Shown here piece after piece: positions 3 to 61,758 of a stretch of DNA of 64,000 nt. The stretch comes from a virus: the IMG/VR virus record IMGVR_UViG_3300037549_000096; one strand, given 5' to 3'. The first letter of the stretch is position 1. Each line of letters opens with the position of its first letter. The notes under the pieces were generated by a model, which saw nothing but the letters and a program-made list of their open reading frames with translations, had not been told where the DNA came from and searched no databases. Both the position numbers and the translations under genes were made by a program.

Positions 3-92
3 ACTGTAGAATATGCTATGTCTTTAGATAAAAGAAAATTGCAACATTCTATTAAAAATTTAAAGAATTATAAAAAAGAGTGTGGAATATGA
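3..92 (+). CDS. 3' end of a gene that begins upstream of the window
   Basis: Open frame ...EYAMSLDKRKLQHSIKNLKNYKKECGI* whose TGA overlaps the next ATG (ATGA). Confidence 0.6.
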   Translation, partial: TVEYAMSLDKRKLQHSIKNLKNYKKECGI

Positions 93-244
93 TTATCAAA
101 CTAGCTTCCATCACAATTCCTGATTCTCATTTAAAATCAGATCATAAAGAACTTGAGTCTATGAAAGCTAAAGCTAAAGGTATTTTAACTGATGTAATAG
201 CTATGGAAAAAGATGATGCTAAAGCTAAAAAGGCGGGGAAGTAA
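89..244 (+). CDS. MIIKLA-leader small protein 1 (51 aa; not in ORF track)
   Basis: My translation: MIIKLASITIPDSHLKSDHKELESMKAKAKGILTDVIAMEKDDAKAKKAGK*. Coupled by ATGA upstream and TAATG downstream. Confidence 0.8.
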   Translation: MIIKLASITIPDSHLKSDHKELESMKAKAKGILTDVIAMEKDDAKAKKAGK

Positions 245-525
245 TGATTATTAAACTAGCATTACTAAATGATTTAAGATCATTCTTAGGAACTACAGCC
301 GGTAAGAGAACGGCTTTAGGTGCTGCTATTGGAGCTACTGCTGGAGCTATTCATCGTGATGATAATAGAACTCACGGCGCTAGTGTTGGAGCAGTATTAG
401 GTGGATTAGGTGGATTAGCTGCACATGAAACTGGGTTAACTGATTTAGTTAAAAATAAAGTATTAGATGGTGTTAAGAACTTTAAAAAAGTGCCTGTTCC
501 TAAAAAGAAATGGTATCAATCATGA
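244..525 (+). CDS. MIIKLA-leader small protein 2, with Gly/Ala-rich glycine-zipper-like segments
   Basis: Same leader. Contains GAAIGATAGA and GAVLGGLGGLAA, a basic C-terminus, and overlapping stop/start codons. Confidence 0.85.
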   Translation: MIIKLALLNDLRSFLGTTAGKRTALGAAIGATAGAIHRDDNRTHGASVGAVLGGLGGLAAHETGLTDLVKNKVLDGVKNFKKVPVPKKKWYQS

Positions 526-713
526 TTATTAAACTAGCTGCTATCGGTGCTGGGTTTGCTAGACTTGAACAATTAGGTTTAGCTGCAAAAGCTGTACAAA
601 AGTATTCAGGATCTAGTTGGCTTAAAAATGCTCCTAAAGTATTACCAGAAATTAAAAAAGTAGTATCAGAAGTTCCAAAGGTTATTCCCACTAATCCGTG
701 GAGTAAGAGGTAA
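522..713 (+). CDS. MIIKLA-leader small protein 3 (start corrected to 522)
   Basis: ATG at 522 overlaps the upstream TGA and gives the same atgattattaaactagc start. Cationic sequence. Confidence 0.8.
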   Translation: MIIKLAAIGAGFARLEQLGLAAKAVQKYSGSSWLKNAPKVLPEIKKVVSEVPKVIPTNPWSKR

Positions 714-7700: not shown

Positions 7701-7745
7701 TTTGTAACAGGCGAATTACAACATCATTCAGATGGTACTTACTAA
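1791..7745 (+). CDS. Single-chain fused beta-beta' (RpoB-RpoC-like) DNA-directed RNA polymerase, trimmed, 1984 aa
   Basis: Beta motifs in order: GDFIVDG, VHPT..DPLNTPE, LALGKN..AYMPWHGLNFEDGIIVSE, GDKLANRHGAKGVIS, SRMSMGQILE, TVKGD. Beta' motifs follow: GGLFD, PVVPPQFRP, NRAPSLHR, GADFDGD, bridge helix GARKGTLD, CEATRGVCKKCYG, trigger loop EPLTQAAMKTFH. Confidence 0.97.
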   Translation: MLEASEIINNMKQGIKESIDSLGKIEAGGKTLEFQNVHFEDHDPRISVDFEKHKQAKLHNKTLGIGVYADAHVTENGNTSVEKVKIGNMPVPTSTGDFIVDGNSYNIDYQFRLKPGAYLRKKQNGEIETHINPIGFPNARVTIDPKTLGLSVGIGQANINALAFLHALDVTTAEQEHILGSDIYKANLNKLNLDKELSKLEQSISKGEKLDKGQLSKLLKEKLDTAKLDPRVTGITLGKPFKDLGAGTIKAIIQKTIAGSKGLVEPDERDAMAFKNVFAVDDFVKERLSGRNKYQLAWQVKSALVKDKPIKESLSSKFLDSMIHPLFTSSAISEFSSRTNQLQQLGAFRKVTSTGEGGIMNEQAITTDMQAVHPTQAYFVDPLNTPESQKAGIAVQFTHDVEIKDHEAHAPFINTKTGKRELKSSIDLFNEHVLLPGAASPDGTIAAIHKGKQIQVKPEQITYKPIHIHQAFSEGALIAPALNYNQGSRASMRTRHAAQAVSLVDREAPLVQSLHPSGSTYEQEVAKKMALIAPEDLTFVEKKNDRLFFKTKDNKLVDSAFWNHDVGTNKSFINHETDHLTPGMKFTQGQIIADSNFTKNGTLALGKNLKTAYMPWHGLNFEDGIIVSESGAKKLTSQHMAQHDFDVHNGVTRMSKAAYLAMFPGKYTKEQLDKLDENGVAKQGIVLQPGDPMHLKIDKHQGTKEDAILGRLHKSLVSPYRDHSEVWTHVTPGTVVDSVLDKTFGKINVKYEAPAQVGDKLANRHGAKGVISAIIPDIEMPQNKKNEVTDVIISPMSVISRMSMGQILETAASKIAKKTGETYKIGSFDNKDHVSRIQHDLAKHKLSDTEELFDKQTGHSYGKILTGYPIMQKLFKLSHGNLSARELGAYDSDHQPMRGGDTGSKAIDQLTLYGLLAHGHRNILNEISTVKGDYNPDFWQRLQMGLPLPKPQTPFVYKKFEGLLAASGVNVRQDGSQKILAPFTDKDTDAIAGENHIQNFKMLNYDMEPVKGGLFDTQITGGMKGTKWAKFTLPNAIPNPLFETAIKNILTIDDKTFKGLLNHTVNVNGKTGHEAFESMLGNIQVKQEIDSTKQALKTATKTGKDKYLKKLKLLKALESQKLHPKDAYMMSKVPVVPPQFRPVIQLPNGSLSKSSLNILYRDAGLVAGSIKEHGLDGDLYSALYHSVGAIQGVKDPISPQAQKQNVKGAIQIITGSTPKTGFFQSKVIRKQQDLSARATIALDNNLHMDQISIPIDMAKSIYKPFATKLLIDQGYSAKDAHDHIDKWSHIGKIAIMNEMNQRPIMMNRAPSLHRFSIMSFKPTVNTTDSTVLIPGLIVKPFGADFDGDTVMLHVPVGEKARKEALKMLPSNNLYNAKAMDLNYTPDQESIMGLHLMSHTANGRKYFNSLLPASVSKVTGIMKKEDIHQRLAEVAAKHPHEYNTIATKLKEEGDKFATLAGFSIGLKDMKPVNGENVKKIYSKAMLKPGDKLKNLLEADDFIKNHSTDDKTNNYVKMVTSQSKGNKENLKQILFAPGIMKDHNDQPILRPVMSNYGSGVDFADFWTAGYGARKGTLDRQMSTARPGALNKEIVNTSMAIVVSENDCGTTNGISISAKDPHVLGRYDAESGKLITKDLLKNKKDIIVRSPITCEATRGVCKKCYGHDEFGSMPDIGRNVGIVSAQAMSEPLTQAAMKTFHMGGTVSGGGGAFGGFETIERFLKAPKTFKNKAVLAREDGIIHSINPGAAGGFNIMINEQEHFIHPDASGELLVRKGQKVNRGDLLNVGIPHPEEALDILGPIKGSHLVVDTLHKLYKASDIKINRRNLETVIRGLTGFAKVTDPGTSKTYVENDVTSLSNVMKFNKEANKSMSLPIQESHGMILSESIAGIKAGTSLDFNHLKHLEKAGHKHIDVYHQPIQFDRIYIGTDKAPNKSTDWLGGLSFRYLKRGIETGAMHSHMSDTHGYHPMAPFVTGELQHHSDGTY

Positions 7746-7759
7746 CTGGAGAAAGTTAA

Positions 7760-9604
7760 ATGTTAAAAGAAGCTTTTATTACTGATATGTTTCCTACTGA
7801 ACAAAAGGTTAGGCTTTCTGAGAATTCAGCAGCTTGGCCCGAAACTATCAATTCTTTAATTTTACGTAAATATCCTGAATTAGCTAATTATATTGATAAA
7901 ATTGTCTTTAGTCATTTAGATAAGATTAAAGGTAATTCTATTGGATATGTTACGACGATTAATAATATTTTTAAAATTCCATTTGTCGTAGATAAGTTTA
8001 CTCTTAGTCCTCTTGATGTTTTTATTAAGGGTAATGTTTATGGTCATCTTTCAACTGATTCTATTAAAAAGTTAGTATCGAATTCTTGGCCTTTTAAACA
8101 AGTTAGCAAGAATGATTTTGTACAATTAAAAAAGTTAGCGGCTACAAGTCTTACTGATATTGATGTTGAAACTATTACAAAAAATCCAGAACTTGTTAAA
8201 TTAGCTGAAGAATTAGCTAATGAATACCCTGAAGTAATTATTAATTTAAGTACGAATTTAGATAATGTACAAATATTGAAACAAGCTGGTCTTGATCCTT
8301 ATGGTCATGAAAAAGTAGCTGCTTTAGAATTAAATCATACTAGAACTGGTATTATTTTACAACATTTTGGCAAAGTAGATGAAACGCTTTCTTTAGGTGA
8401 ATGTGCAGCTAGATTCGGGGAAGAGAAAGTAGCACAAGTTTTATATCATGGTTATATTCCTACTGTACTTCGTGAAATCATGGTTAAGACAGCCGATGAA
8501 CTTAATCCTATTCAATTTAAATTTGATGTTAACTTACCTAGAACAGTAAATATCGCTGACGGTGTTGGTGGTTTCGTTCGTGGTAATATGTATGAACTTA
8601 GAGATATTAAAACTCCAAATAGAAAAGAAGGTCATATTTTCTTAAGTACTCGCGCTAAAGATCCTGTTTATATGACAATCTTTACGCCTCCTGCTAAAGA
8701 CCGTATTTATTCAATTGCAGAACGAGCTACTTTAGGTGATATCGTAGATGATCTTTCTAGGTCTTCTGGTAAGGCGGGACAAGCTTTAGCTATCTTATTA
8801 GGTGATATCGTTTATGGTCCCTTTGATTTAATCACTGAAGCTGTTAACGGAAATACTCATATTCTCTCTATTAAAGATGGTTATGAATATGATTCTAAAC
8901 GTATTCATATTACTAATGATGTTAAATCAATCGTTGTTGAAGGTGATGAGATTTACGTGCCTAAACATGCGAAAGTTTTATGTTTAGGTGAACCTTATCA
9001 AATGGAGCATCCATTACACAAAGCCGCTGCTCTTGCTGTAACGGTAGCTGTTTCTCCTGATAAGCAATCTTATAATATTATCGATGCAGGTGTAAGCGGA
9101 TTACCTGCTGGATCTTTACAGAATATTAAGAAAACTAAAGCAACGACAGCTTTAATGCATTGCGGATTGAGCGAAGTGGAAGCTAAACAGGCTCTTTCTA
9201 ATGCAGCGACTACTGGTGTTCATAAATTTAACGCTACTCCTACTGCTACTCAATCTGAAACTCAAACTAGAGATGAAGTACAATCATTATCTAGTAAGAA
9301 AATTTTAGAGAAGAAAGCTGAAATGATTCGTAAGATTATGGAAAAATCAGAGTTTATTAAAATAGCCATGAATTACGGAGATGAAGAAAGTGTGGATATG
9401 GCACTTGGTCTTAATTTAGTAACTCCTACTAGCGTCAAAAAATATCGTATTTTGATTCCGAAAATTGAAGATACGATTGACGGTTTGAGTAAATTACTTA
9501 TGGCAAAACGTGTAGGTGGTTCTATAATTCCTTTAGACGAAGGTAAGCTTACCTCCGCTATTTCAGATCTTCATACCGTCATGTGTGAACTCACCGGGAT
9601 CTAG
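7760..9604 (+). CDS. 614-aa K-x-A-rich protein, probable virion/head protein
   Basis: Long ORF with RBS and about 12 K-x-A sites (LKEA, KKLAA, VKLAE, LKQAG, EKVAA, VKTAD, HKAAA, EKKAE, IKIAM). Function is inferred. Confidence 0.6.
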   Translation: MLKEAFITDMFPTEQKVRLSENSAAWPETINSLILRKYPELANYIDKIVFSHLDKIKGNSIGYVTTINNIFKIPFVVDKFTLSPLDVFIKGNVYGHLSTDSIKKLVSNSWPFKQVSKNDFVQLKKLAATSLTDIDVETITKNPELVKLAEELANEYPEVIINLSTNLDNVQILKQAGLDPYGHEKVAALELNHTRTGIILQHFGKVDETLSLGECAARFGEEKVAQVLYHGYIPTVLREIMVKTADELNPIQFKFDVNLPRTVNIADGVGGFVRGNMYELRDIKTPNRKEGHIFLSTRAKDPVYMTIFTPPAKDRIYSIAERATLGDIVDDLSRSSGKAGQALAILLGDIVYGPFDLITEAVNGNTHILSIKDGYEYDSKRIHITNDVKSIVVEGDEIYVPKHAKVLCLGEPYQMEHPLHKAAALAVTVAVSPDKQSYNIIDAGVSGLPAGSLQNIKKTKATTALMHCGLSEVEAKQALSNAATTGVHKFNATPTATQSETQTRDEVQSLSSKKILEKKAEMIRKIMEKSEFIKIAMNYGDEESVDMALGLNLVTPTSVKKYRILIPKIEDTIDGLSKLLMAKRVGGSIIPLDEGKLTSAISDLHTVMCELTGI

Positions 9605-52507: not shown

Positions 52508-54073
52508 TTGCACATGGATATATCTAACATTGATTTCATACAAAGAACAATGTTCTTAGAAGGTCAACCGTGGAGATTTACGGATAGACCATATATATTA
52601 CCTATCATTAATGATGATCCGTGGAAACTTATCATCATGACAGGTAGACAGTCAGAAAAGTCTACTTCTATGGCTGGAAAACACATAGCTTCTGCTTGTA
52701 GAACGCCTCATCAATCATCTTTATATATTAATCCTACTATGACTCAGACTTCTGTTTATAGTAGAAAGAAAATTGATGCAGTATTTGAACAATCACCATT
52801 ATTAAAAGCTAATTTTTGGCCTGGAAGTAAGGGTTTTAGCGTTACTGAAAAAAGATTAAAAAATAATCATACAATGTACTTTAGATCTGCTTATCATGAC
52901 GCAGATACTATTCGTGGTTTAACATCTGATAGAACTTTAATTGATGAACGTCAAGATATGATCAATGATTGTATTCCGGTCATTGAAGAATGTTCTTCGC
53001 ATAGACCTAATGCAGTATTTATGCAAACAGGTACTCCTAAAACTTTATCTAATGGTTTTGAATATGAATGGCAGTTATCAACTCAAAGCGAATGGACTAT
53101 TAAGTGTTTTCATTGTGGACGTTGGAATATACTAAGTATTAAAAGTATCATTCCAGGTAAAAATGGATTATGGTGTGAAAAATGTTCTAAAGATATATTC
53201 ACACAACACGGAACATGGATATCATACGGAAAAGAAAAAGCTAAAGTACACGGTTATAGATTTCCTCAAATTATTCTCCCAAGTATTTATATTAATTGGG
53301 AGAAGTTGTTTATTAAGATGGAAAATTATTCTATAGCTACTTTAATGAATGAAGTATTTGGTCATTCATATGATGCTGGTGTTAAACCTATTACTAGAGA
53401 AGAAATAGCTAAATGTTGTAATCAAGAAAGAGTTATGGAACTTGTATCTAATGCTAACGCATTGGGGTATGAAGTCTTTGCAGGTGTAGATTGGGGAACT
53501 GGAGAACTTGGTTATACAATTTTACAGATTGGACATTATAATCCTAACTCTAATAAAATAGTTATCACTTTATCTAAACGTTATATAGGTAAAGAAGCTG
53601 AACCTGAATACATGTTACAAGATATAGCTAGAAAATTATTAGATAATTGTGTAATGATATGTGGTGTTGATCACGGTTTTAGTTTTGGTTTAGTTGATCG
53701 TCTTAAATCATTAGTAAGTGGAAAATGTAAGGTTGTAGCCTTTCAACATACTAATTTTAAAGGTTATGTAGGTTATAATAAAAAAGGTACTCATTATGTA
53801 ACGAATAGAACTGCTGTTATGGCTGATACATTTGAAGCTATTAAACAAACATTCTTTGAATTTCCTGCTTGGAATATATACGAAACTTTTGCTAATGATT
53901 TTATGAATATTGAAGTAGAGTATAATGAACGCACTAGAACTATGAAATATGATCATATTCCTACTAATCCAGATGATGCTTTTCATTCTTTGTTATATTT
54001 ATATATAACTTATCTTATTAGAGTCAAAAAACGTGCGCCTGAGTCTTATGACCCAGATCGTGATGAACCTTGA
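52508..54073 (+). CDS. Terminase large subunit (GpA-like, with CxxC pairs)
   Basis: Walker A GRQSEKS, DTIRG, Walker B LIDE, GTPKT, nuclease GVDWG and DDAFH. Confidence 0.88.
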   Translation: MHMDISNIDFIQRTMFLEGQPWRFTDRPYILPIINDDPWKLIIMTGRQSEKSTSMAGKHIASACRTPHQSSLYINPTMTQTSVYSRKKIDAVFEQSPLLKANFWPGSKGFSVTEKRLKNNHTMYFRSAYHDADTIRGLTSDRTLIDERQDMINDCIPVIEECSSHRPNAVFMQTGTPKTLSNGFEYEWQLSTQSEWTIKCFHCGRWNILSIKSIIPGKNGLWCEKCSKDIFTQHGTWISYGKEKAKVHGYRFPQIILPSIYINWEKLFIKMENYSIATLMNEVFGHSYDAGVKPITREEIAKCCNQERVMELVSNANALGYEVFAGVDWGTGELGYTILQIGHYNPNSNKIVITLSKRYIGKEAEPEYMLQDIARKLLDNCVMICGVDHGFSFGLVDRLKSLVSGKCKVVAFQHTNFKGYVGYNKKGTHYVTNRTAVMADTFEAIKQTFFEFPAWNIYETFANDFMNIEVEYNERTRTMKYDHIPTNPDDAFHSLLYLYITYLIRVKKRAPESYDPDRDEP

Positions 54074-54121
54074 TCTTATTTTTATATTTTTATTAATAAA
54101 AAATGATTATAGATCAAAATC

Positions 54122-54150
54122 GTGACTCTTAGAAATTTTTGTGATATGAT
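54122..54150 (+). promoter_or_regulatory. Sigma70/sigmaA-type promoter for the head operon
   Basis: GTGACT-17 bp-TATGAT with extended TG. Confidence 0.6.
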
Positions 54151-54187
54151 TTATAAAGTCAGTTCCATTTATTGAGGCAGACCACTT

Positions 54188-55741
54188 ATGAATCCTATTG
54201 AATTGGTTTTAACCGCTAAGAAAATAGCTGAAGGCCATGTAACCAGTGGCATTGACCTTAATGATTCTATTTTAAAGGTTGCTTCAGATAATAATCTGTC
54301 TAAACCTCAGATTGAACGTCTTGTTGAAGAAACTAATAAGGCTACATTTATGGAATTGTTAGAAAAGAAGGGTGAACAAGAATTCCCTGTAGCTGATTAT
54401 CAAACTATTAAAGGCAAGATGATACCTAAAATTGAAAAGAATGCTTCTGAAAATTTACAATTTGAAAACTTAAATTATTCTCAAGATGGTTTTACTGAAT
54501 TATTAGGTAGTGAACGTATTTCAAAACCTACTATTGAAAAAGTAGCTTCTACTCACGGATTTAGCGAAGAAGGTTTAGCTTATTTTGAAGCTTTATATAA
54601 AGTTGCTAGTGATTATTTGACTGATTATAATAGGTTATTAGATTTAGAAGCTTTAGGTCAAAAACGTTATGGTAATAATTATTCAGAAGCTAAAGATTTA
54701 GTTAAAATTGCTGAGATTCATAATGATAAAGAAATCTTAGAACTTAAAGAATTACAAATTAATCTCGAAAAGAATGGTCATGTATTTGAATTTATTAGTA
54801 ATAAAATGGAAAAGATAGGGGCTTTTAGTCCTTGGGGTAATACTAATCCTTTTAAAGCAAATAGTATTCCTCATGCGGTTGGTGCTGCTATTAATTTTGC
54901 TACTAAACATACCATTGGTTTACCTTTTGGTTTAGCTGGTGGTGCTGCTAAAGTAGGACTAAAAGGCGCGGCTGTAGCTGCTCCGGTTTTATTACCTTTA
55001 GCTCTTAAGGGCGTTGTAAAGAATCCTAATGCATCTTTAACTATTGCTAGTGAAGGTTCTAAAGCAATTAAAGGCGCTAAAGGTGTATTAAAAGGAAATA
55101 ACTTTATCGGTCCTGGTGCTACTTTAAATGATGGTTTAATTTCTACTGCTATGGAAAAGAAGGCTTTATTAGAAGGCGCGATTCCTGCTATGACTGCTTT
55201 ATTTAAAAGTCCATTAGCTAAAGTAGTCAGTGGCGCTTTAACCGTAGGTTCTGCTGCTAGTAAATTAACTAAACCTGTTGGACAAATCGGAACTGGTTTA
55301 ACTGCTTTAGCTTCTGAAGGCGTTAATAAAGAAGCTGGTATTGGTAGTGGTTTACAGGCTTTATTAGAAAATGTTACACCTATTGTTGAGTTTGGAGCTA
55401 AAAGTATCACACCTTTTGGAATCATGGCAGGAATTACTGCCTTAGCTGCTAAGAAATTAGGAGGGGGAATTGCGCTCACCATGAATAAGCGGGAATTTGA
55501 TCGTTCATTTGATACGATCATGAAAAATAATCCAGACTTTGCATCTAACAAAGATCAAGTTCGTGGTTATTTTGATGTAGTATCAAGACACGCTCCTTCT
55601 CTCGCTAAAGACCCGCTTGTAGCTGAAAGTATTGTTAAAAATATGAATGCCTTTGGTGGTGTTGATTACAATACTGTGCGGGGATTACGTCAAACTGAAC
55701 AATTAGGTCAAGACTCTAACTCACGTTCTTTATTTAACTAA
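54188..55741 (+). CDS. K-x-A-rich head protein, possibly a polyprotein of Gly/Ala-rich peptides
   Basis: About 10 K-x-A sites, with hydrophobic cationic segments after EKIGA, EKKAL and NKEAG. Lies after the terminase. Confidence 0.6.
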   Translation: MNPIELVLTAKKIAEGHVTSGIDLNDSILKVASDNNLSKPQIERLVEETNKATFMELLEKKGEQEFPVADYQTIKGKMIPKIEKNASENLQFENLNYSQDGFTELLGSERISKPTIEKVASTHGFSEEGLAYFEALYKVASDYLTDYNRLLDLEALGQKRYGNNYSEAKDLVKIAEIHNDKEILELKELQINLEKNGHVFEFISNKMEKIGAFSPWGNTNPFKANSIPHAVGAAINFATKHTIGLPFGLAGGAAKVGLKGAAVAAPVLLPLALKGVVKNPNASLTIASEGSKAIKGAKGVLKGNNFIGPGATLNDGLISTAMEKKALLEGAIPAMTALFKSPLAKVVSGALTVGSAASKLTKPVGQIGTGLTALASEGVNKEAGIGSGLQALLENVTPIVEFGAKSITPFGIMAGITALAAKKLGGGIALTMNKREFDRSFDTIMKNNPDFASNKDQVRGYFDVVSRHAPSLAKDPLVAESIVKNMNAFGGVDYNTVRGLRQTEQLGQDSNSRSLFN

Positions 55742-55759
55742 TAAAATAGGAGACATATA

Positions 55760-56293
55760 ATGTCTAAAGTTGATGATTTTCTCGCCAAGTTAGCTTCCGC
55801 TGAAAAGCCTGTTGAAAAGCCTGTTGTCTCTACTGAAACTACTGTAGAGAAAACCGCTGAAGAGAAGGAAGCTGAAGCTCTTATGTTTAAGTTAGCTAAC
55901 CAGAATGAAACTATCGAAGCCTCTACTGTTCTTGGTTTAGCTGCTGGTGAACTGTTTAAACTTGCTGAAGAGAGCAAGGATGAACTTATTGGTGAATGTG
56001 CTGAAGGTCTTAGTCTTGCTAGTCAGAGTCTTATGTTTGGTTTAAATAAGATTGCCGCTGAAGATGCTGCTGGCGCGATTACTGATATGGTTGAAACTCA
56101 GGATAGTCTTCAGAAAATTGCTACTGTATTAGCCGCTGTCGCTACTGAAGCTGAAAATGAAGATTTCACTAAGTTAGCTTCCAGTGTTATCGAAGTTAGC
56201 AATACTCTCTTTGACGAATTAAAGGATCTGGCTGAGAAAGATGAGTCAGTAGCCGGTTATTTAGCTGAATTTCATAAAGAAGTAGCTAAGTAA
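55760..56293 (+). CDS. Acidic K-x-A-rich scaffold/core-like protein
   Basis: 8 K-x-A sites in 177 aa, with highly-expressed-type codons. Confidence 0.6.
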   Translation: MSKVDDFLAKLASAEKPVEKPVVSTETTVEKTAEEKEAEALMFKLANQNETIEASTVLGLAAGELFKLAEESKDELIGECAEGLSLASQSLMFGLNKIAAEDAAGAITDMVETQDSLQKIATVLAAVATEAENEDFTKLASSVIEVSNTLFDELKDLAEKDESVAGYLAEFHKEVAK

Positions 56294-56314
56294 ATAGTTT
56301 TTAGAAAGTATCCC

Positions 56315-56755
56315 ATGCTTGTTAAAATCGCTGCTCGTATAGATGTTTTGAAGCGAGTATTAAAGCATCAAAAATCTTTTACGCCAGAATTTTTAAAAGT
56401 TCAGGCTAAAAAAGCTAAATCTAAGATGCTAGAAAATTACAGACTTGAACCGGGCAAATTAAGCGATTCTCAAGCATGGGATATTTTTAATAGACAAGTG
56501 TATCACAACGTTAGAAATGTTGGACGAAGAGTAACAAATCCAATTAGATATGATAAAGGGGTTGATCGAATGGGAAATGCTGCTGCTTTTCTTAAAGGTA
56601 AAGGTAAGGAAATTGCTGAAGGTGGTAAGAAAGCTGTAGATTATTTAAAGAAAAATAAAGCAGAAGCCTCTATAGTAGCTGGTTCTACTATCATTGGTGG
56701 AGTAGGTGCTAAAAAAGCTATTGATCATTTAAGAAAAAAGAAAGAATCAAAGTAA
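56315..56755 (+). CDS. Basic protein with MLVKIA leader
   Basis: Variant of the MIIKLA leader. Lys-rich, with a C-terminal Gly-rich hydrophobic stretch. Confidence 0.7.
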   Translation: MLVKIAARIDVLKRVLKHQKSFTPEFLKVQAKKAKSKMLENYRLEPGKLSDSQAWDIFNRQVYHNVRNVGRRVTNPIRYDKGVDRMGNAAAFLKGKGKEIAEGGKKAVDYLKKNKAEASIVAGSTIIGGVGAKKAIDHLRKKKESK

Positions 56756-56823
56756 TTGCCCCTAACCGGGCATTTACCTAAATACTTCATGAAGTGTTTA
56801 GTTAAATGTCATACGGAGATAAA

Positions 56824-57015
56824 ATGATTGTTAAATTAGCTGGTCCTAGTTCTTTAGTAGCTGGTGTTGGTAGTGTTTTAACTAAAACTGTAGCTAAAGA
56901 TACTGCTAATGTAGCTGCTAAAGCTGTTCCTGCAATTAAAAAGTTTGTACCTGTACCTCCTGGTGGTGGTCAACAAGCTTGGATTGCGGCTCAAAAAGCA
57001 GCGGGTAAATTATAA
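56824..57015 (+). CDS. MIVKLA-leader small protein (start corrected to 56824)
   Basis: GGAG RBS, atgattgttaaattagc start, TAATG coupling to the protease gene. Confidence 0.75.
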   Translation: MIVKLAGPSSLVAGVGSVLTKTVAKDTANVAAKAVPAIKKFVPVPPGGGQQAWIAAQKAAGKL

Positions 57016-58583
57016 TGATTAAATTAATCGAAGCTTCTTTAGAAGATGACTATTTCTTTGCCACTAATATAGAAAAAAGTGGCTTTGATAAAGTTGCATC
57101 TGTTAGGGATTTACCTAAAGAAGTAGATGATGTAATTAAAAATTTAAAAAAGAAACCTAATCATAGATATGTTTTATTATCTGCTATGGGCGATGGTGAA
57201 ACTTGGGGCAGTAATCGTAATGGTGATTACTTTTCTAATAAAGCTTTAACTGGCGTTCAACGTAAAGATGAAAGAGGCGTTAAAGATAATAAGCCTATTG
57301 AACGTTACAAGACATTTGAAAGAGGTCATTTCTTTCATCATCATAAGAATAAGATTCAAAATGGTGATCCTCATTTTGGTTATGTTCCTCATGCTATTTG
57401 GAATCCCAAGATGAGAACTGTTTTACTTATTGTTGGAGTTGATGCTTTAAAAGATCCTGAAACTGCGGCTGATATTGATGAAGATAAACTTACTTCGTTT
57501 TCTATGGGCGCAAGATTACCTTATGATGTTTGTTCTAAATGCGGTAATAAAAGAACGAAGATTACTGAAAATTGCAAATGCTTACGGGATGGTTTATTAA
57601 ATAAGATTGCAGCAGATGGTTCTAAAGTTGTTTTATATAATGAAGAACCTGACTTTTTTGATATATCAAAAGTTTACAAACCAGCGTTTGAGGGTGGTCG
57701 GTCACTCATGAAAGTGGCGGCTGATCTAGGTGGTTGTATTTCTAGTTTAGATATTGCTTTAGAGTATGGCTTAGTCGATGTAGACGGTGAACCTTTTATG
57801 AAACTGGCCGATCTTCAGACTAAAATTTTAGAACGAATTCAAGAATTACCGAATCACTTAGTTGATACTGTTAGAGAAGTATGCAGAACAGAAGAAAGAT
57901 TACCTGCTTCATTCTTAAATACTTTAGAACAATTTGAATTATTTGATATTTGGGGCGCTTTCGCAGATGCAGGTATTATTCCTACTGCTGATGAATTTGC
58001 TTATTTATATTTAATTAAACAAGCTCGTTATGATTTAGCCATGCAATACCTTGGTAAAGATATTGAATTAGTAGAAGGTGTAGAACCTGAGTCTATTACT
58101 CCTTCTTTACTTTATCAAATTAGAGTAATAATGTCAGGTAAGTCTAAAGATATAGAATCTAGAATTGATAATGAATTACGTCGTGATCGTGGATTAGCTA
58201 CATTAAGTCAACGTGTATACGATACCAAAAGAGGCATTCGTAAACTTAAGTATCGTCAACAAGCGAAACTTGGTCCATCAATGTCTACTTTGTATTTTGA
58301 ATTACGTAAGAATATGCAAGATGCTATTCAATCAAAACAAGAACCTGTTTCTTTATCCAAGGAAGCTGGTACTTTGTTACAAGCTGGAGCGGGTTTTGTT
58401 GCCCCTTATGTACTTTCAGCACACTTTCAACAAAAAGAACAGAACGGCGAACCTGTGGGATTTATTGGCAAGACATTGGCTAACAATCCTGCTAAGATAG
58501 GAATAGCAACGGCTTTAACGGCTGCTTACCCGAAACATATAGGTCAGGCTCTTGTCAATACCGTAAAAACGTTTCGCAAATAA
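57015..58583 (+). CDS. Putative prohead maturation protease with C-terminal extension
   Basis: NRNGDYF, FFHHH (candidate His), SFSMG (candidate Ser), CSKCG..CKC insert, FFDIS.V..PA. Lies upstream of the capsid gene. Confidence 0.65.
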   Translation: MIKLIEASLEDDYFFATNIEKSGFDKVASVRDLPKEVDDVIKNLKKKPNHRYVLLSAMGDGETWGSNRNGDYFSNKALTGVQRKDERGVKDNKPIERYKTFERGHFFHHHKNKIQNGDPHFGYVPHAIWNPKMRTVLLIVGVDALKDPETAADIDEDKLTSFSMGARLPYDVCSKCGNKRTKITENCKCLRDGLLNKIAADGSKVVLYNEEPDFFDISKVYKPAFEGGRSLMKVAADLGGCISSLDIALEYGLVDVDGEPFMKLADLQTKILERIQELPNHLVDTVREVCRTEERLPASFLNTLEQFELFDIWGAFADAGIIPTADEFAYLYLIKQARYDLAMQYLGKDIELVEGVEPESITPSLLYQIRVIMSGKSKDIESRIDNELRRDRGLATLSQRVYDTKRGIRKLKYRQQAKLGPSMSTLYFELRKNMQDAIQSKQEPVSLSKEAGTLLQAGAGFVAPYVLSAHFQQKEQNGEPVGFIGKTLANNPAKIGIATALTAAYPKHIGQALVNTVKTFRK

Positions 58584-58595
58584 AAAGGATAATTT

Positions 58596-59111
58596 ATGAC
58601 TATGACTTTTAAAGAGTTTCTTCTTCAGGCTGACGAACAAGAGTTAGTTAAATTAGCTAATTCTCTTAAATTAGGTTTTGAAAGCCATGTAACTAACGCA
58701 GTTGTGCCTTTATTTACTAAATTTGCTGAAGAAGCTACTGAACAAGTAGCTAAAGAAGTAACTGAGCAAGTGACTCAAAATATGGGCGCTTATTTAGAAG
58801 GTCAACAGGCTAATGAAATTGGTAAATTAAATGCACAGGGACAAGTAAATGATATGGTTCTACCTGAAACTGGCAGAACTATTAGTAAAAATGAATTACA
58901 GGAAGCTTTAGAAGAAGCTATTTTAGCAAATAACCCTAAAGCTTTAGCTCAGGTTATCAGTGGCGTATTACAAGCTGCCGGTGAAGATTCTGCCATGAAT
59001 GCTATCTCTGTAGCTAGAACGATCTTGCAAGATGCGTTAGTTTCTGGTAAGCTTGATAAAGATCAGATTGCTACTTTGTCTCAGGCGTTCTCTGTATTCG
59101 AGAGTGAATAA
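58596..59111 (+). CDS. Acidic helical head/scaffold-like protein
   Basis: LVKLAN and FTKFAE sites. Operon position. Confidence 0.55.
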   Translation: MTMTFKEFLLQADEQELVKLANSLKLGFESHVTNAVVPLFTKFAEEATEQVAKEVTEQVTQNMGAYLEGQQANEIGKLNAQGQVNDMVLPETGRTISKNELQEALEEAILANNPKALAQVISGVLQAAGEDSAMNAISVARTILQDALVSGKLDKDQIATLSQAFSVFESE

Positions 59112-59112
59112 T

Positions 59113-59523
59113 ATGAGCGATCTTCTTAAACAACTATTAGCCGAAGCAAAAGAAGCTGAAGTAGTGAAAACTGCTGAAGCTCCTAATGAAGCTCCTAGCG
59201 CAGAACAGCAAAATGCTGACGTTTTAGAAACTTCGCAAGCAATGATTTCTAAAATTGATAACTTCATTCAGCAAGCTACTGGTTCTGGTGGTGGTGATAA
59301 TGCTAATGTTGATGGACAACAACAAGCAGTAGGTGGTCAAGTTGATGGTGGTGCTGCTTCAACAACTGGTGATCCTAATGATCCTACTCAAGCTGGTAAT
59401 GCAACTGTTAAATTAGAAGTTCCTGCTGGTATGACTGTAAAATTAGGTTCTTGTGACCCCGTTAATAGTGATACAGCTATTCGTACTATTATTAGTCTTA
59501 TGCCTTCTTATTTCGGGGAATAA
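59113..59523 (+). CDS. Acidic Gly-rich head/scaffold-like protein (start probably 59113)
   Basis: VVKTAE site. Low complexity. Confidence 0.55.
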   Translation: MSDLLKQLLAEAKEAEVVKTAEAPNEAPSAEQQNADVLETSQAMISKIDNFIQQATGSGGGDNANVDGQQQAVGGQVDGGAASTTGDPNDPTQAGNATVKLEVPAGMTVKLGSCDPVNSDTAIRTIISLMPSYFGE

Positions 59524-59524
59524 A

Positions 59525-59887
59525 ATGGACCCTACGTTACAAGCTGCTCTCCAAATGTTACAGGAAGCACAACAAGTAATGGCTATGCAGGCTGAAGAGA
59601 TTCAGACTTTACGCCAGGGAAGCAAGAAGCTTCAAGAACAACAGCCTATGCAGAAGAAAGCTTCTGTTAGTTCTGATAAATTAGCTATGTTAGTAGGTAT
59701 GAGAGCGGAAGATTTACCTGAATTTATCAAGACCGCTGAAGAAGATGAAGTTAGAAGCTTTATGTCTAATGTTGAATTAAGAGCTAGACATAATTCTATC
59801 GGTAAGATTGCCGAAATTTACGATGGTAGTCAAGCTGAAACACCTGCCGAGCAATTAGAAGCGACTTTGAGCGGTTTAATTGGATAA
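59525..59887 (+). CDS. Scaffold-like protein (start probably 59525)
   Basis: Coiled coil with QKKAS, DKLAM, IKTAE and GKIAE sites. Confidence 0.55.
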   Translation: MDPTLQAALQMLQEAQQVMAMQAEEIQTLRQGSKKLQEQQPMQKKASVSSDKLAMLVGMRAEDLPEFIKTAEEDEVRSFMSNVELRARHNSIGKIAEIYDGSQAETPAEQLEATLSGLIG

Positions 59888-59915
59888 CAACCAACTTTTT
59901 TAAAGGAGAAGCGCA

Positions 59916-60323
59916 ATGCTTCAAATTAACTACGGCCTTAATCAGCCTTTCTGCTCTGCTCACACTCCTACTCGACAAGTTAGCGGTACTACGGTATTCG
60001 TTAACGGTCAGTTTGTGAAGCTCGTTAATGGTTTAGCGGTATTAGCCACTACTCCTGCTGACGGTCTTGGTTCTGAGCAGGCTTTTGAACCTAATAACAA
60101 GAATACCGCTGGTGTTCTTACCACTATCCGTGGTATCTACGAAGGTACTACTGATCAGTATGTTACTGCTTCAACTTATACTGATCGTTGCGCTTTAGTT
60201 ATTCGCAATGGTCTGTTAGATGTTGCTGTCGGTGCTACTGAGATTGCCGAAGCTGTTGCTATGGCGGTTGGTGTTCCTGCAAATGGAACTCTCCGTTATA
60301 AGCGTTTAGCTGCTTCCGTATAA
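59916..60323 (+). CDS. Putative capsid decoration/cement protein
   Basis: 135-aa beta-rich protein directly before the capsid gene. Strong RBS. Confidence 0.55.
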   Translation: MLQINYGLNQPFCSAHTPTRQVSGTTVFVNGQFVKLVNGLAVLATTPADGLGSEQAFEPNNKNTAGVLTTIRGIYEGTTDQYVTASTYTDRCALVIRNGLLDVAVGATEIAEAVAMAVGVPANGTLRYKRLAASV

Positions 60324-60348
60324 TAGCGTAACCAAAAGGAGAAGTGCT

Positions 60349-61260
60349 ATGAAAATGAATGTATCTCAACTTTGGGACGCTACCGAAACGATAGAAAAAA
60401 CAGCGGAAACTTCTAACGCTGTCGGATTCTTCACTCGTAGTCGTCTTCGTCAAGAATGCGTTCTTGACCGTGTTCTTCCTCCCCAGTTCATTACTCAGAA
60501 TGATCTGGAACGCAATACAAATGATGACTATCCGTTAATTCGCGTTGAGAAAGAACTCGAAACTACGGCTTTCGCTCTTGGTTTCCGTGGTAGTGCTGAA
60601 ACTGACTGGTTCGATGGTTCTAAGTATGAAATTTACTTCGGACAGGTTAGAACTCAGGAACACAATAAGACTCAAGAAGAATTGATGACCATGAGAGCGC
60701 CTGTGGTTGATTATTTCAACCGTAATGGTGTTTTCGATATCGGTGCTAAGGCTGATATCACCTTTAAGGCTGGTTTAGATGCTGCTGCTGCAGCTGCCTC
60801 TAACGTAATTACTTCTACTTCTACCGCCTTTACTAAGGCAGATGCAGTTAATATGCTTAAGACTATGGAAATTAAGCGTATGCCTGCTGGTTGCTGGATC
60901 GTAACTGAATCTCGTTGGAATGACATTCTCTTAATGTCTCCCAATGATTTAGGTTATACTCTGGTTGGTGAATTAGCTATCAATGGTGCGAAGAAGATTC
61001 CTACCTTCCTCGATATTCCTGTTGTACGCACAATTGAAGCTTATCAGGCTGGTGTTGTTACTTCAGTTTGGGATAATAAGAGCGTTTATCTTTGCTCTAC
61101 TCCTGACTTCCTTGGTAAGAACTTTATTCTCCAGGATGTTCAGTATCACATGGAACGTAAGTATAATTTACTGACTTGGGCCGCTTGGATGACTCGTGGT
61201 GCTGGTATCGGTAATATTAACGCTTCTGTTCGCGCTGATTTCCCTAACGCTGGCATCTAA
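60349..61260 (+). CDS. Major capsid protein (compact, probably HK97/encapsulin-like fold)
   Basis: AAGGAG RBS, strongly biased codons, position, and R.RLR....DRVLPP..IT / FLDIPVVRTI / FLGK motifs. Confidence 0.75.
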   Translation: MKMNVSQLWDATETIEKTAETSNAVGFFTRSRLRQECVLDRVLPPQFITQNDLERNTNDDYPLIRVEKELETTAFALGFRGSAETDWFDGSKYEIYFGQVRTQEHNKTQEELMTMRAPVVDYFNRNGVFDIGAKADITFKAGLDAAAAAASNVITSTSTAFTKADAVNMLKTMEIKRMPAGCWIVTESRWNDILLMSPNDLGYTLVGELAINGAKKIPTFLDIPVVRTIEAYQAGVVTSVWDNKSVYLCSTPDFLGKNFILQDVQYHMERKYNLLTWAAWMTRGAGIGNINASVRADFPNAGI

Positions 61261-61278
61261 CTCTTAATGGAGTAAGAT

Positions 61279-61758
61279 ATGACACAGTACATCAAAGCTG
61301 TTCACGGTAATGTAGCTGCTGGTGGTAAATACTTTCTTGAAGGTATGTCTACTTCTGTAGAAGATGAATTAGCTACTAGTGTTGAAGTTAAACTGATGGT
61401 TGATAAGGGATATTTAAAAGTATTTCCTACTCTTGTCGCTGCTCAGAATCATACTTTCAAATCTATGAGCGAAAAATTTAAGGCTGGAGAAGATATTAAA
61501 GTTCCTTCAGTTAATACCGCTGCTAAAACTGCTGAAGAAGATAAAAAGAAACAGGAAGAACTAGCTAAAGCCACTAAGTTAGCAGAAGAAGAAAAAGCCA
61601 TTGCAGATGCTAAAGTTAAATCTGAAGCTGCTAAAGCTGAATTAGCTGCTGCCGAAGCTGCTAAAGCTGCTGAATTAGCTAATCCTCAAGCTCCTGCTCC
61701 TGTAGTAGCTCCCGTAGATACTACTCTTGCTCCTACTACGGCTACTACCACTAAGTAA
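61279..61758 (+). CDS. Head-associated protein with an Ala/Glu/Lys helix and Pro/Thr tail
   Basis: Follows the capsid gene. AKTAE and TKLAE sites. Confidence 0.6.
   Translation: MTQYIKAVHGNVAAGGKYFLEGMSTSVEDELATSVEVKLMVDKGYLKVFPTLVAAQNHTFKSMSEKFKAGEDIKVPSVNTAAKTAEEDKKKQEELAKATKLAEEEKAIADAKVKSEAAKAELAAAEAAKAAELANPQAPAPVVAPVDTTLAPTTATTTK

What the first reader, a model, noticed from the sequence alone, without database searches (positions are those of the whole stretch)
54188..61758. Recurrent K-x-A motif across head-module proteins: a Lys-directed maturation code
Seen: K-[LIVTKEQ]-A-[ESAG] recurs in nearly every protein here. There are 8 sites in the 177-aa protein, about 10 in the 517-aa protein, 6 in the protease itself (FDKVAS, LNKIAA, LMKVAA, FMKLAD, LIKQAR, LSKEAG), 4 in the 120-aa protein, and IEKTAE near the capsid N-terminus. 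By eye it is not concentrated in replication proteins. It is the same KLA core as the MIIKLA tag. Known: T4 gp21 and phiKZ gp175 cut many head proteins at a 3-residue motif ending in Glu. Inference: the protease at 57015 cuts after K-x-A. It would process itself (sites flank the catalytic region), shred the scaffolds, trim about 17 residues from the capsid protein and release cargo.
Basis: partly seen in the sequence, partly recalled or inferred. Interest (0 to 1): 0.8.

Follow-up and report, generated by a model that had tools for sequence, protein, structure and literature searches.

The report
Lys-x-Ala cutting code of phage head
The head-building proteins of this large uncultured phage and its relatives share a short Lys-x-Ala signal that most likely marks where the phage's own herpesvirus-like capsid protease cuts them, a cutting rule I could not find described for any phage, though no cut has been measured.

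Summary
In an unbiased scan of all 400 X-x-Y residue pairs against per-protein shuffles, K-x-A ranks first in the head module (43 seen, 24 expected, z 4.3). It also ranks first in Salmonella phage Arash, Vibrio phage D69, three metagenomic relatives and phage G, but is not enriched in neighbouring non-head genes. The same scan on T4 recovers its known I/L-x-E protease motif. A flank model trained only on relatives finds 17 sites in this head module against 1.1 expected, and 2 against 2.2 in 13,478 residues of replication genes. K-x-A is invariant at the capsid protein N-terminus. It also sits at both edges of the folded domain of the 522-aa protein, whose model matches T4 gp21 (Z 9.5) and herpesvirus proteases. 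A further conserved site lies 71 residues from that protein's C-terminus, a herpesvirus-like R-site/M-site layout. Five small basic proteins start with M-I-I-K-L-A-type tags (0.11 expected). Best reading (about 0.7): the recognition motif of the prohead protease, cut after Ala. Cleavage itself is unmeasured. This scan noted the same Lys-x-Ala rule before on other DNA (a phage-G-like huge phage, e1-5368820). I found no paper describing it.

The parts
57015..58583 (+). 522-aa protease-scaffold fusion: N-terminal propeptide (1-28), protease domain (about 30-228), variable helical middle (236-451), conserved basic Gly/Ala-rich tail (452-522)
   Evidence: AF2 model with a 30-sequence alignment: pLDDT 76, ordered over 30-228, disordered over 1-29 and 229-245. 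VIA-align: T4 gp21 5jbl Z 9.5, VZV protease Z 7.2, HCMV protease Z 5.8. BFVD: 114 hits, many named prohead protease. Weak match to phrog_18299, head maturation protease.
57342..57344 (+). His110, candidate catalytic histidine
   Evidence: Invariant in 27-30 homologues down to 20% identity. Its catalytic role is inferred, not shown.
57501..57503 (+). Ser163 (in S-M-G), candidate catalytic serine
   Evidence: Invariant S163-M164. It lies 53 residues after His110. Its catalytic role is inferred.
57090..57098 (+). K26-V-A28, predicted N-terminal self-processing site
   Evidence: K26 and A28 are invariant. The site lies at the start of the ordered model. 137 of 139 further family representatives have K-x-A at this place.
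57711..57719 (+). K233-V-A235, predicted release (R-like) site at the end of the protease domain
   Evidence: K233 and A235 are invariant in 27 sequences. The site lies at the end of the ordered model. 137 of 142 representatives have K-x-A within 35 residues after the FFDIS motif, 93 of them exactly 14 residues after it.
57801..57809 (+). K263-L-A265, further predicted site in the linker
   Evidence: F-[DM]-K-x-A is present in most of the 27 aligned homologues.
58359..58367 (+). K449-E-A451, predicted maturation (M-like) site 71 residues from the C-terminus
   Evidence: K and A are nearly invariant in 19 aligned tails, just ahead of the conserved APY..SAH.QNK..ANNPGK tail.
60349..61260 (+). 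HK97-fold major capsid protein, 303 aa
   Evidence: phrog_2522 major head protein. NCBIfam capsid_Caudo_2 below its cut-off.
60397..60405 (+). K17-T-A19, predicted capsid-protein trimming site (removes 19 residues)
   Evidence: K17 and A19 are invariant in 14 homologues down to 42% identity. Arash and D69 carry GL[VT]KEAGAA at residue 27.
54188..55741 (+). 517-aa head protein with 10 K-x-A sites, predicted substrate
   Evidence: 10 seen vs 5.0 expected. 6 sites pass the flank model trained on relatives. The N-terminal part is 40% identical to Arash gp220, a virion protein, and the ILKVAS and IEKNAS sites are shared.
55760..56293 (+). 177-aa acidic (pI 4.3) scaffold-like protein with 8 K-x-A sites
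   Evidence: 8 seen vs 2.5 expected. K31-T-A33, K44/A46, K97/A99 and K138/A140 are invariant in orthologues at 55% and 31% identity.
56315..56755 (+). 146-aa basic protein starting MLVKIA (N-terminal tag)
56806..57015 (+). 69-aa basic Gly/Ala-rich protein with MIVKLA at residues 7-12
58596..59111 (+). 171-aa acidic protein with 2 K-x-A sites, not individually enriched
59113..59523 (+). 136-aa acidic protein with the site EVVKTAEA
59525..59887 (+). 120-aa acidic protein with 4 K-x-A sites
   Evidence: 4 seen vs 0.85 expected, p 0.003
89..713 (+). Three consecutive small basic genes (89-244, 244-525, 522-713), each starting MIIKLA: predicted tagged head cargo
7760..9604 (+). 614-aa protein next to the RNA polymerase gene, K-x-A enriched: possible further substrate (lower confidence)
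   Evidence: 12 seen vs 4.0 expected. 3 sites pass the flank model. Five sites are invariant in homologues, but the protein is well conserved overall.

Best explanation
K-x-A, more fully [L/M/I/F]-[E/x]-K-x-A followed by S/A/G/E, is the recognition motif of the phage's prohead serine protease. That protease is the N-terminal domain (about residues 30-228) of the 522-aa protein at 57015-58583.

The protein is a protease-scaffold fusion laid out like herpesvirus UL26. By analogy, it is co-assembled into the procapsid, then cuts itself at several sites:
- K26-V-A28, which removes the propeptide.
- K233-V-A235 and K263-L-A265, which release the protease domain (R-site-like).
- K449-E-A451, which detaches a conserved 71-residue tail (M-site-like).

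It would also:
- cut the acidic scaffold-like proteins (177, 136, 120 aa) and the 517-aa protein into short pieces;
- remove 19 residues from the capsid protein;
- clip the 6-12-residue M-I-I-K-L-A-type leaders from small basic proteins, which may use the leader to enter the procapsid.

**Shown here:** the statistics, the conservation of sites, their position at domain edges, the fold, and the invariant His and Ser.

**Inferred:** that cutting happens, that the bond cut is the one after Ala (K at P3, A at P1), and that the leaders also serve as targeting signals.
For: 1. **Unbiased scan.** K.A is the top pair of 400 in the head modules of the window (z 4.3), Arash (z 6.1), D69 (z 7.0), phage G (z 3.3), and loci L004 (z 4.7), L005 (z 6.9, 53% GC) and L006 (z 5.3). 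Flanking non-head genes give z -0.2, -1.4 and -1.0.
2. **Positive control.** The same scan on T4 gp67/68/21/22/23/24 gives I.E rank 1 and L.E rank 2, the known gp21 motif.
3. **Independent test.** Flank weights trained on Arash, D69, L004 and L005 find 17 sites in the window's head module vs 1.1 expected (z 14.6). They find 2 vs 2.2 in 13,478 residues of the minus-strand genes.
4. **Specificity and direction.** The reversed pair A.K and the related pairs R.A, E.A, K.S and K.G are not enriched.
5. **Shared flanks.** All six phages show L/M/I/F at -2, E at -1 and S at +3.
6. **Conserved positions.**
   - Capsid protein N-terminus.
   - Three to four sites in the protease.
   - Both flanking sites in 96-99% of 147 further family representatives.
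   - Four sites in the 177-aa protein at 31% identity.
7. **Sites at domain edges.** The two flanking sites sit where the confident AF2 model ends.
8. **Fold.** T4 gp21 Z 9.5, VZV protease Z 7.2 and HCMV protease Z 5.8, above the first unrelated fold at Z 4.9. BFVD returns prohead proteases.
9. **N-terminal tags.** Five tags end exactly in K-[LI]-A, vs 0.11 expected, with the same in L004 (MSLIKLA, MSIVKLA). Conservation stops at the Ala.
10. **Precedent.** Relatives of this fold cut after a three-residue P3-P2-P1 motif: SPN3US gp245 at A-X-E with Ser preferred at P1' (PMC10052503). Herpesvirus proteases cut after Ala at R and M sites, YLQA-T and VQA-S (PMC4498786).
Against: - No cleavage has been measured in this phage or any relative. 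The Arash virion proteome paper reports no protease or processing and holds no peptide list.
- No sequence-level link to Pfam protease families or to T4 gp21; the assignment rests on fold and a weak PHROG hit.
- The geometry of His110 and Ser163 could not be inspected.
- The pattern hydrophobic-x-K-hydrophobic-A also fits one face of an amphipathic helix. Some sites lie in internal repeats (for example in Arash gp223), which inflates counts somewhat.
- A more distant family member, BcepSauron, shows no K.A enrichment, so the rule is not family-wide.
- The bond cut is only inferred.
Confidence: 0.7

Rival explanations
1. K-x-A is a docking or capsid-targeting peptide that binds the scaffold, the shell interior or the protease and brings proteins into the procapsid, but it is not itself the cut site. 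Cutting, if any, happens elsewhere or not at all.
For: The motif forms complete N-terminal leaders (MIIKLA) on small proteins, as targeting sequences do. The hydrophobic residues at -2 and +1 would give a binding face.
Against: Eight to twelve copies within one scaffold-like protein, and sites placed exactly at both ends of the protease domain and before its tail, are what a cutting code predicts rather than a single address label. In T4 and phiKZ-like phages the targeting leader and the cut site coincide, so the two readings are not exclusive.
Confidence: 0.12
2. The protease does cut at these motifs, but at another bond, for example directly after Lys, so Lys rather than Ala is P1.
For: Lys is as invariant as Ala. 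Nothing here fixes the scissile bond.
Against: In every characterised protease of this fold cited here, the conserved triplet is P3-P2-P1 and the cut follows it (PMC10052503; PMC4498786). Herpesvirus enzymes take Ala at P1 and Ser/Thr at P1', matching the Ser preference at +3. Conservation of the N-terminal leaders stops at Ala.
Confidence: 0.1
3. The motif is a structural feature of helical head proteins, either a packing or helix motif or a remnant of a shared ancestral repeat. It has no role in recognition by the protease.
For: Many carriers are predicted helical and K/A/E-rich. The pattern hydrophobic-x-K-hydrophobic-A fits an a-d-e helix face. Some sites lie in internal duplications.
Against: - The reversed pair A.K and other helix-compatible pairs are not enriched.
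- Sites occur in segments modelled as disordered at domain edges.
- Sites occur in proteins of unrelated kinds: the HK97-fold capsid protein, the protease and small basic proteins.
- Position and identity of K and A hold while the surrounding sequence drifts to 20-30% identity.
Confidence: 0.06
4. The recurrence is a by-product of Lys- and Ala-rich composition.
For: The head proteins are richer in Ala than the rest of the window.
Against: Composition-preserving shuffles are exceeded in seven phages with 31-53% GC, and K.A ranks first of 400 pairs each time. The flank model gives z 14.6.
Confidence: 0.01

Closest known systems
Herpesvirus protease-scaffold protein (HSV/PrV UL26, assemblin, MEROPS S21) with R and M sites
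   Same: - One ORF carries an N-terminal serine protease of the same fold (VZV Z 7.2, HCMV Z 5.8) followed by a scaffold part.
- A conserved site lies right at the end of the protease domain, and another lies a few dozen residues from the C-terminus, ahead of a conserved tail.
- Ala comes before the presumed cut and a small residue (Ser) after it (PMC4498786).
   Different: - Lys rather than Val/Leu/Gln two residues before the Ala.
- An extra N-terminal propeptide site.
- Many more substrates.
- A Cys-x2-Cys...Cys-x-Cys/His insertion in the domain.
- No detectable sequence similarity.
- A nested scaffold gene was not looked for, and the third catalytic residue is unknown.
T4 prohead protease gp21 (MEROPS S77) with I/L-x-E sites and the capsid-targeting leaders of internal proteins
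   Same: - Best structural match (5jbl, Z 9.5, rmsd 2.9 over 126 residues).
- A three-residue code is spread over scaffold, capsid protein, the protease itself and small internal proteins carrying short N-terminal leaders that end in the motif.
- The code is detectable by the same pair statistic.
   Different: - The motif is K-x-A, not I/L-x-E (basic P3, small P1).
- The protease is fused to a long scaffold-like extension.
- No sequence similarity by hhalign.
- The capsid protein loses about 19 residues rather than 65.
phiKZ gp175 / SPN3US gp245 (MEROPS S80) cutting after S/A/G-x-E
   Same: A large phage with many head proteins processed at a P3-P2-P1 motif and Ser preferred at P1' (PMC10052503). 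The cultured relative Arash also carries RNA polymerase in the virion (PMC10585845).
   Different: Different motif and different protease subfamily. Cleavage is shown by mass spectrometry for those phages and not for this one.
Phage G gp19 and the wider uncharacterised family (Arash gp222, Vibrio D69, Mycobacterium cluster C phages, Erwinia and Burkholderia jumbo phages)
   Same: True homologues: tblastn E 4e-28 to 7e-9, and 4,736 clusters in the profile search. Gp19 is annotated as a head maturation protease (PMC12484599). K.A is the top pair in the phage G head module and rank 2 in phage I3.
   Different: No cutting rule is published for any member that I could find. BcepSauron shows V.A instead of K.A, so the residue two before Ala may vary within the family.

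Membership tests
Prohead (capsid maturation) serine proteases of the assemblin / T4 gp21 fold (MEROPS clan SH) | Assemblin-type fold | tested here: met
   AF2 model of residues 1-245 (pLDDT 76). Across 48,161 PDB chains the top three are T4 gp21 (Z 9.5), VZV protease (Z 7.2) and HCMV protease (Z 5.8), above the first unrelated fold at Z 4.9. Foldseek's top hit is 5jbl with probability 0.91. BFVD hits are named prohead protease.
Prohead (capsid maturation) serine proteases of the assemblin / T4 gp21 fold (MEROPS clan SH) | Conserved catalytic Ser and His | tested here: inconclusive
   His110 and Ser163 are invariant in 27-30 homologues.
Prohead (capsid maturation) serine proteases of the assemblin / T4 gp21 fold (MEROPS clan SH) | Sequence match to a curated protease family (Pfam S21/S77/S78/S80 models) | tested here: not met
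   No Pfam hit at E <= 0.1. No NCBIfam hit. hhalign against T4 gp21 gives probability 0.5%. Only a weak match to phrog_18299 at E 2e-6.
Prohead (capsid maturation) serine proteases of the assemblin / T4 gp21 fold (MEROPS clan SH) | Gene lies in the head module between terminase/portal and capsid protein, next to scaffold-like genes | tested here: met
   Gene order is TerL, 517, 177, 146, 69, 522, 171, 136, 120, 135, capsid protein. The same order holds in Arash, D69, L004, L006 and phage G.
Prohead (capsid maturation) serine proteases of the assemblin / T4 gp21 fold (MEROPS clan SH) | Proteolytic activity on head proteins | not testable with these tools
   Needs expression or virion mass spectrometry.
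Herpesvirus-type protease-scaffold fusion with release and maturation sites | Protease domain and scaffold part in one polypeptide | tested here: met
   An ordered domain at 30-228 is followed by about 290 mostly helical residues. Family median length is 559 aa.
Herpesvirus-type protease-scaffold fusion with release and maturation sites | Conserved site with Ala at the end of the protease domain, and a second site near the C-terminus | tested here: met
   K233/A235 are invariant. K449/A451 are nearly invariant, 71 residues from the end. That these sites are cut is inferred.
Herpesvirus-type protease-scaffold fusion with release and maturation sites | Nested in-frame scaffold gene (UL26.5-like) | not tested
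   Internal starts were not examined.
T4-type capsid-targeting leaders | Short N-terminal leader ending in the protease motif on otherwise unrelated small proteins | tested here: met
   MIIKLA three times, plus MLVKIA and MIVKLA: 5 genes vs 0.11 expected. MSLIKLA and MSIVKLA occur in L004.
T4-type capsid-targeting leaders | Leader is needed for packaging into the head and is removed there | not testable with these tools
   Needs virion proteomics or reporter fusions.

The most novel reading that the evidence does not exclude
A very large, unnamed family of phage protease-scaffold fusions (at least 4,700 sequence clusters) uses a herpesvirus-like rule: cut after Ala, at a release site and a maturation site. 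In this branch Lys at P3 has become a genome-wide code that both addresses proteins to the procapsid and cuts them. Among other things it releases a set of small cationic Gly/Ala-rich peptides as head cargo. That would make the herpesvirus UL26 layout and Ala specificity an old trait shared with tailed phages. It would also let the mature virion proteome of thousands of uncultured phages be read from sequence.
Probability: 0.35. Interest if true: 0.75.

Novelty: new variant of a known kind. Interest (0 to 1): 0.6.

Why it matters
Head-maturation proteases with a short cutting code are known for T4 and phiKZ-like phages, always ending in Glu. Here the same logic appears with a different code (Lys-x-Ala) in a protease family that has no curated model, yet is very common in metagenomes. 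It also occurs in cultured phages: Arash, Vibrio D69, phage G and Mycobacterium cluster C.

If confirmed, the rule predicts mature protein ends, propeptides and packaged cargo directly from sequence for this whole group. It would also link phage and herpesvirus capsid proteases by substrate rule and domain layout, not only by fold. And it gives a clean experimental handle, because cultured relatives exist.

Tried and rejected
- **Single-sequence AF2 of the whole 522-aa protein:** unusable, pLDDT 35.
- **HMM search of the protease profile against PDB sequences:** only noise.
- **hhalign against T4 gp21:** nothing.
- **Arash paper and supplements:** no mention of a protease or processing and no peptide list, so virion N-termini could not be checked. 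The 86.6% coverage of its capsid protein is compatible with loss of 29 residues but proves nothing.
- **Phage G structure paper (Gonzalez 2020):** not held.
- **Jumbo-phage capsid paper PMC5646251:** no cleavage detail for this family.
- **Full-text search for KXA or K-X-A with prohead or capsid maturation:** no paper holding the motif.
- **Complex prediction of the capsid protein with the 85-residue C-terminal tail of the protease:** no verdict, so the idea that the tail anchors to the capsid protein stays an analogy.
- **The 614-aa protein (7760-9604):**
  - No PHROG, Pfam, NCBIfam or Atlas lead.
  - It is not clearly related to Arash gp218.
  - Arash's portal is annotated elsewhere (Gp204), so I dropped the idea that it is the portal.
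- **Whole genome:** not held, so tail and other virion genes outside the window were not scanned.

Full report
**Setting**

The window is AT-rich (about 31% GC). It comes from a large phage; the same capsid and protease proteins lie on a 168,567-base contig. The finding covers a plus-strand head module:

| Coordinates | Product |
|---|---|
| 52508-54073 | large terminase (phrog_675) |
| 54188-55741 | 517 aa |
| 55760-56293 | 177 aa |
| 56315-56755 | 146 aa |
| 56806-57015 | 69 aa |
| 57015-58583 | 522 aa |
| 58596-59111 | 171 aa |
| 59113-59523 | 136 aa |
| 59525-59887 | 120 aa |
| 59916-60323 | 135 aa |
| 60349-61260 | 303-aa HK97-type capsid protein (phrog_2522) |
| 61279-61758 | 159 aa |

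The closest cultured relatives are Salmonella phage Arash (181 kb), Vibrio phages D69, D181 and D148 (187 kb), and more distantly Bacillus phage G and Mycobacterium cluster C phages. The head modules of Arash, D69 and phage G, whose loci were fetched, have the same gene order.

Against 1,000 composition-preserving shuffles per protein, K-x-A is enriched as follows:

| Protein | Seen | Expected |
|---|---|---|
| 517 aa | 10 | 5.0 |
| 177 aa | 8 | 2.5 |
| 522 aa | 7 | 3.5 |
| 120 aa | 4 | 0.85 |
| 614 aa (7760-9604) | 12 | 4.0 |

None of about 80 other ORFs is enriched.

Instead I scored all 400 X-x-Y pairs over the eleven head proteins. K.A ranks first (43 vs 24.1, z 4.3), and K..E and L.K are also high. 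The reversed pair A.K and the pairs R.A, E.A, K.S, K.G, KA and K..A are flat or depleted. The signal is therefore specific and directional, which a general amphipathic-helix bias would not be.

As a positive control, the same scan on T4 gp67, gp68, gp21, gp22, gp23 and gp24 returns I.E first and L.E second. That is the experimentally known gp21 motif.

**Does it hold elsewhere?**

K.A is again the top pair of 400 in every related head module tested:

| Phage or locus | Seen vs expected | z |
|---|---|---|
| Arash | 48 vs 22.5 | 6.1 |
| Vibrio phage D69 | 51 vs 22.1 | 7.0 |
| Phage G | 27 vs 15.7 | 3.3 |
| L004 (metagenomic) | 49 vs 27.4 | 4.7 |
| L005 (metagenomic, 53% GC) | 40 vs 16.3 | 6.9 |
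| L006 (metagenomic) | 41 vs 19.9 | 5.3 |

Non-head genes next to the three metagenomic modules give z -0.2, -1.4 and -1.0.

The flanks agree in all six phages: Leu/Met/Ile/Phe two residues before the Lys (3-6 fold over background), Glu just before it, and Ser (also Ala, Gly, Glu) after the Ala.

I then trained weights for those flanks on Arash, D69, L004 and L005 only and applied them to the window:

| Part of the window | Sites seen | Expected | z |
|---|---|---|---|
| Head module | 17 | 1.1 | 14.6 |
| Minus-strand replication genes (13,478 residues) | 2 | 2.2 | about 0 |
| Other plus-strand genes | 4 | 0.9 | 3.4 |

Of the four sites in the other plus-strand genes, three lie in the 614-aa protein and one is a MIIKLA leader.

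**Where the sites sit**

- **Capsid protein.** A K-x-A lies at residues 17-19. K17 and A19 are invariant in 14 homologues down to 42% identity. Arash and D69 carry GL[VT]KEAGAA at residue 27, the equivalent place.
- **522-aa protein.** In 27 homologues down to 20% identity, K26/A28 and K233/A235 are invariant. A site at K449-x-A451 is nearly universal, and F-D-K-x-A near residue 263 is common. The sequence between residues 236 and 449 is poorly conserved.
- **Wider family.** A profile of the N-terminal 245 residues finds 4,736 clusters at 50% identity (2,077 at E <= 1e-30), with median length 559 aa. Among 147 new representatives, 137 of 139 have K-x-A ahead of the domain. Also, 137 of 142 have it within 35 residues after the FFDIS motif, 93 of them exactly 14 residues after.
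- **177-aa protein.** Four K-x-A sites are invariant at 31% identity.
- **Small basic proteins.** Five begin with the motif: MIIKLA at 89, 244 and 522, MLVKIA at 56315 and MIVKLA at 56824. That is 5 genes against 0.11 expected. L004 has MSLIKLA twice and MSIVKLA. In these leaders conservation stops at the Ala.

**What the 522-aa protein is**

Folded alone it gave no usable model. With a 30-sequence alignment, residues 30-228 fold with confidence (pLDDT 80-94), while 1-29 and 229-245 are disordered. The two invariant K-x-A sites therefore lie exactly at the edges of the domain.

Compared with 48,161 PDB chains, the best matches are T4 gp21 (Z 9.5, rmsd 2.9, 126 residues), VZV protease (Z 7.2) and HCMV protease (Z 5.8). 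The first unrelated fold scores Z 4.9. Foldseek ranks 5jbl first as well. In BFVD the model hits phage G gp19, PaBG, phiRSL1 and many entries named prohead protease.

His110 and Ser163 (in S-M-G) are invariant. So are Cys173, Cys176 and Cys187, with Cys or His at 189, which suggests a small zinc-binding insertion. There is no sequence-level link to curated protease families. Phage G gp19 is already called a head maturation protease in PMC12484599.

**How it most likely works**

The layout matches herpesvirus UL26. A protease domain is followed by a scaffold part, with one site at the end of the protease domain (release site). A second site lies near the C-terminus (maturation site), and cutting there removes the tail that holds the scaffold to the capsid protein. 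Both herpesvirus sites have Ala before the cut (PMC4498786). In SPN3US the conserved triplet A-X-E is P3-P2-P1 and Ser is preferred at P1' (PMC10052503).

By these precedents I read K-x-A as P3-P2-P1 with the cut after Ala:
- Self-cutting at 28, 235 (and 265) and 451 would free a protease of about 207 residues and detach the conserved basic tail (pI 10.0).
- The acidic proteins of 177, 136 and 120 aa (pI 4.1-4.7) and the 517-aa protein would be cut into pieces of roughly 5-40 residues.
- The capsid protein would lose 19 residues.
- The small basic proteins would lose their leaders.

All of this is inference from sequence, conservation and fold. No cut has been measured. The Arash virion study lists these proteins as virion components but says nothing on processing and provides no peptides.

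**Rivals**

- **Pure docking or targeting signal.** This is not excluded and may coexist with cutting. It explains the multiplicity of sites and their position at domain edges less well.
- **A different scissile bond.** This cannot be excluded.
- **A helix-packing motif or shared repeat.** This is contradicted by the directionality, by sites in disordered segments, and by sites in unrelated kinds of protein.
- **Composition alone.** This is excluded by the shuffles.

**Limits of the rule**

In Mycobacterium phage I3 K.A ranks second (z 3.5). In Burkholderia phage BcepSauron it is not enriched, and V.A ranks first (z 3.5). So Ala may be the constant and the residue two before it variable across the family. 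This is a lead, not a result.

**Novelty**

Searches of the held literature found no description of a Lys-x-Ala rule. Within this scan, two other first readers noted the same stretch (e1-5731057, e1-5731065). A follow-up on another genome, a phage-G-like huge phage, reached the same Lys-x-Ala reading (e1-5368820). My phage G result agrees with it. I class the finding as a new variant of a known kind: a known mechanism (a prohead protease with a short code), a new code, and an uncharacterised, very large protease-scaffold family.

Noticed in passing
window 1791-7745 (+): A 1984-aa protein joins RNA polymerase beta-type domains (Rpb2_6, Rpb2_3) and beta'-type domains (Rpb1_1, _2, _4, _5) in one chain. 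In the relative Arash, beta and beta' are separate genes and are among the most abundant virion proteins.
   Followed up: partly
window 718-1548 (+): A LAGLIDADG homing endonuclease with an HTH domain lies between the three MIIKLA-tagged genes and the RNA polymerase gene.
   Followed up: no
window 57531-57581 (+), residues 173-189 of the 522-aa protein: An invariant Cys-x2-Cys ... Cys-x-Cys/His cluster is inserted in the protease domain after the candidate catalytic Ser. It is a possible zinc ribbon, which I do not recall in T4 gp21 or the herpesvirus proteases.
   Followed up: partly
window 7760-9604 (+): A 614-aa protein of no known family lies directly after the RNA polymerase gene. It is the only protein outside the head module with K-x-A enrichment (12 vs 4.0), and three of its sites fit the flank model. 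It may be a processed virion protein.
   Followed up: partly
L009 (Burkholderia phage BcepSauron) 6794-12468: The head module of this distant family member shows V.A, not K.A, as the top residue pair (30 vs 17.7, z 3.5). This hints that the family keeps Ala while the residue two before it changes.
   Followed up: partly
L008 (Mycobacterium phage I3) 7839-12065: The protease homologue is the N-terminal part of a 1408-aa protein, preceded by a 1266-aa protein. These are possibly giant head polyproteins. K.A ranks second in this module.
   Followed up: no
window 54800-55741, 56315-57015 and 58368-58580 (+): The C-terminal part of the 517-aa protein, the 146- and 69-aa proteins, the MIIKLA proteins and the tail of the protease are all basic and Gly/Ala-rich (pI 9.3-10.4). 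Other first readers proposed membrane-active ejection peptides (e1-5731045, e1-5731058); I did not test this.
   Followed up: no
window 52508-54188: No portal gene lies between the terminase and the head proteins, here or in L004 and L006. No portal was recognised anywhere in the window.
   Followed up: no
protease family (profile A3): The family has 4,736 clusters at 50% identity in public metagenomes and 322 cultured-phage records by tblastn with phage G gp19. No Pfam or NCBIfam model matched the window's own protein; homologues in the phage records are mostly annotated as hypothetical.
   Followed up: partly
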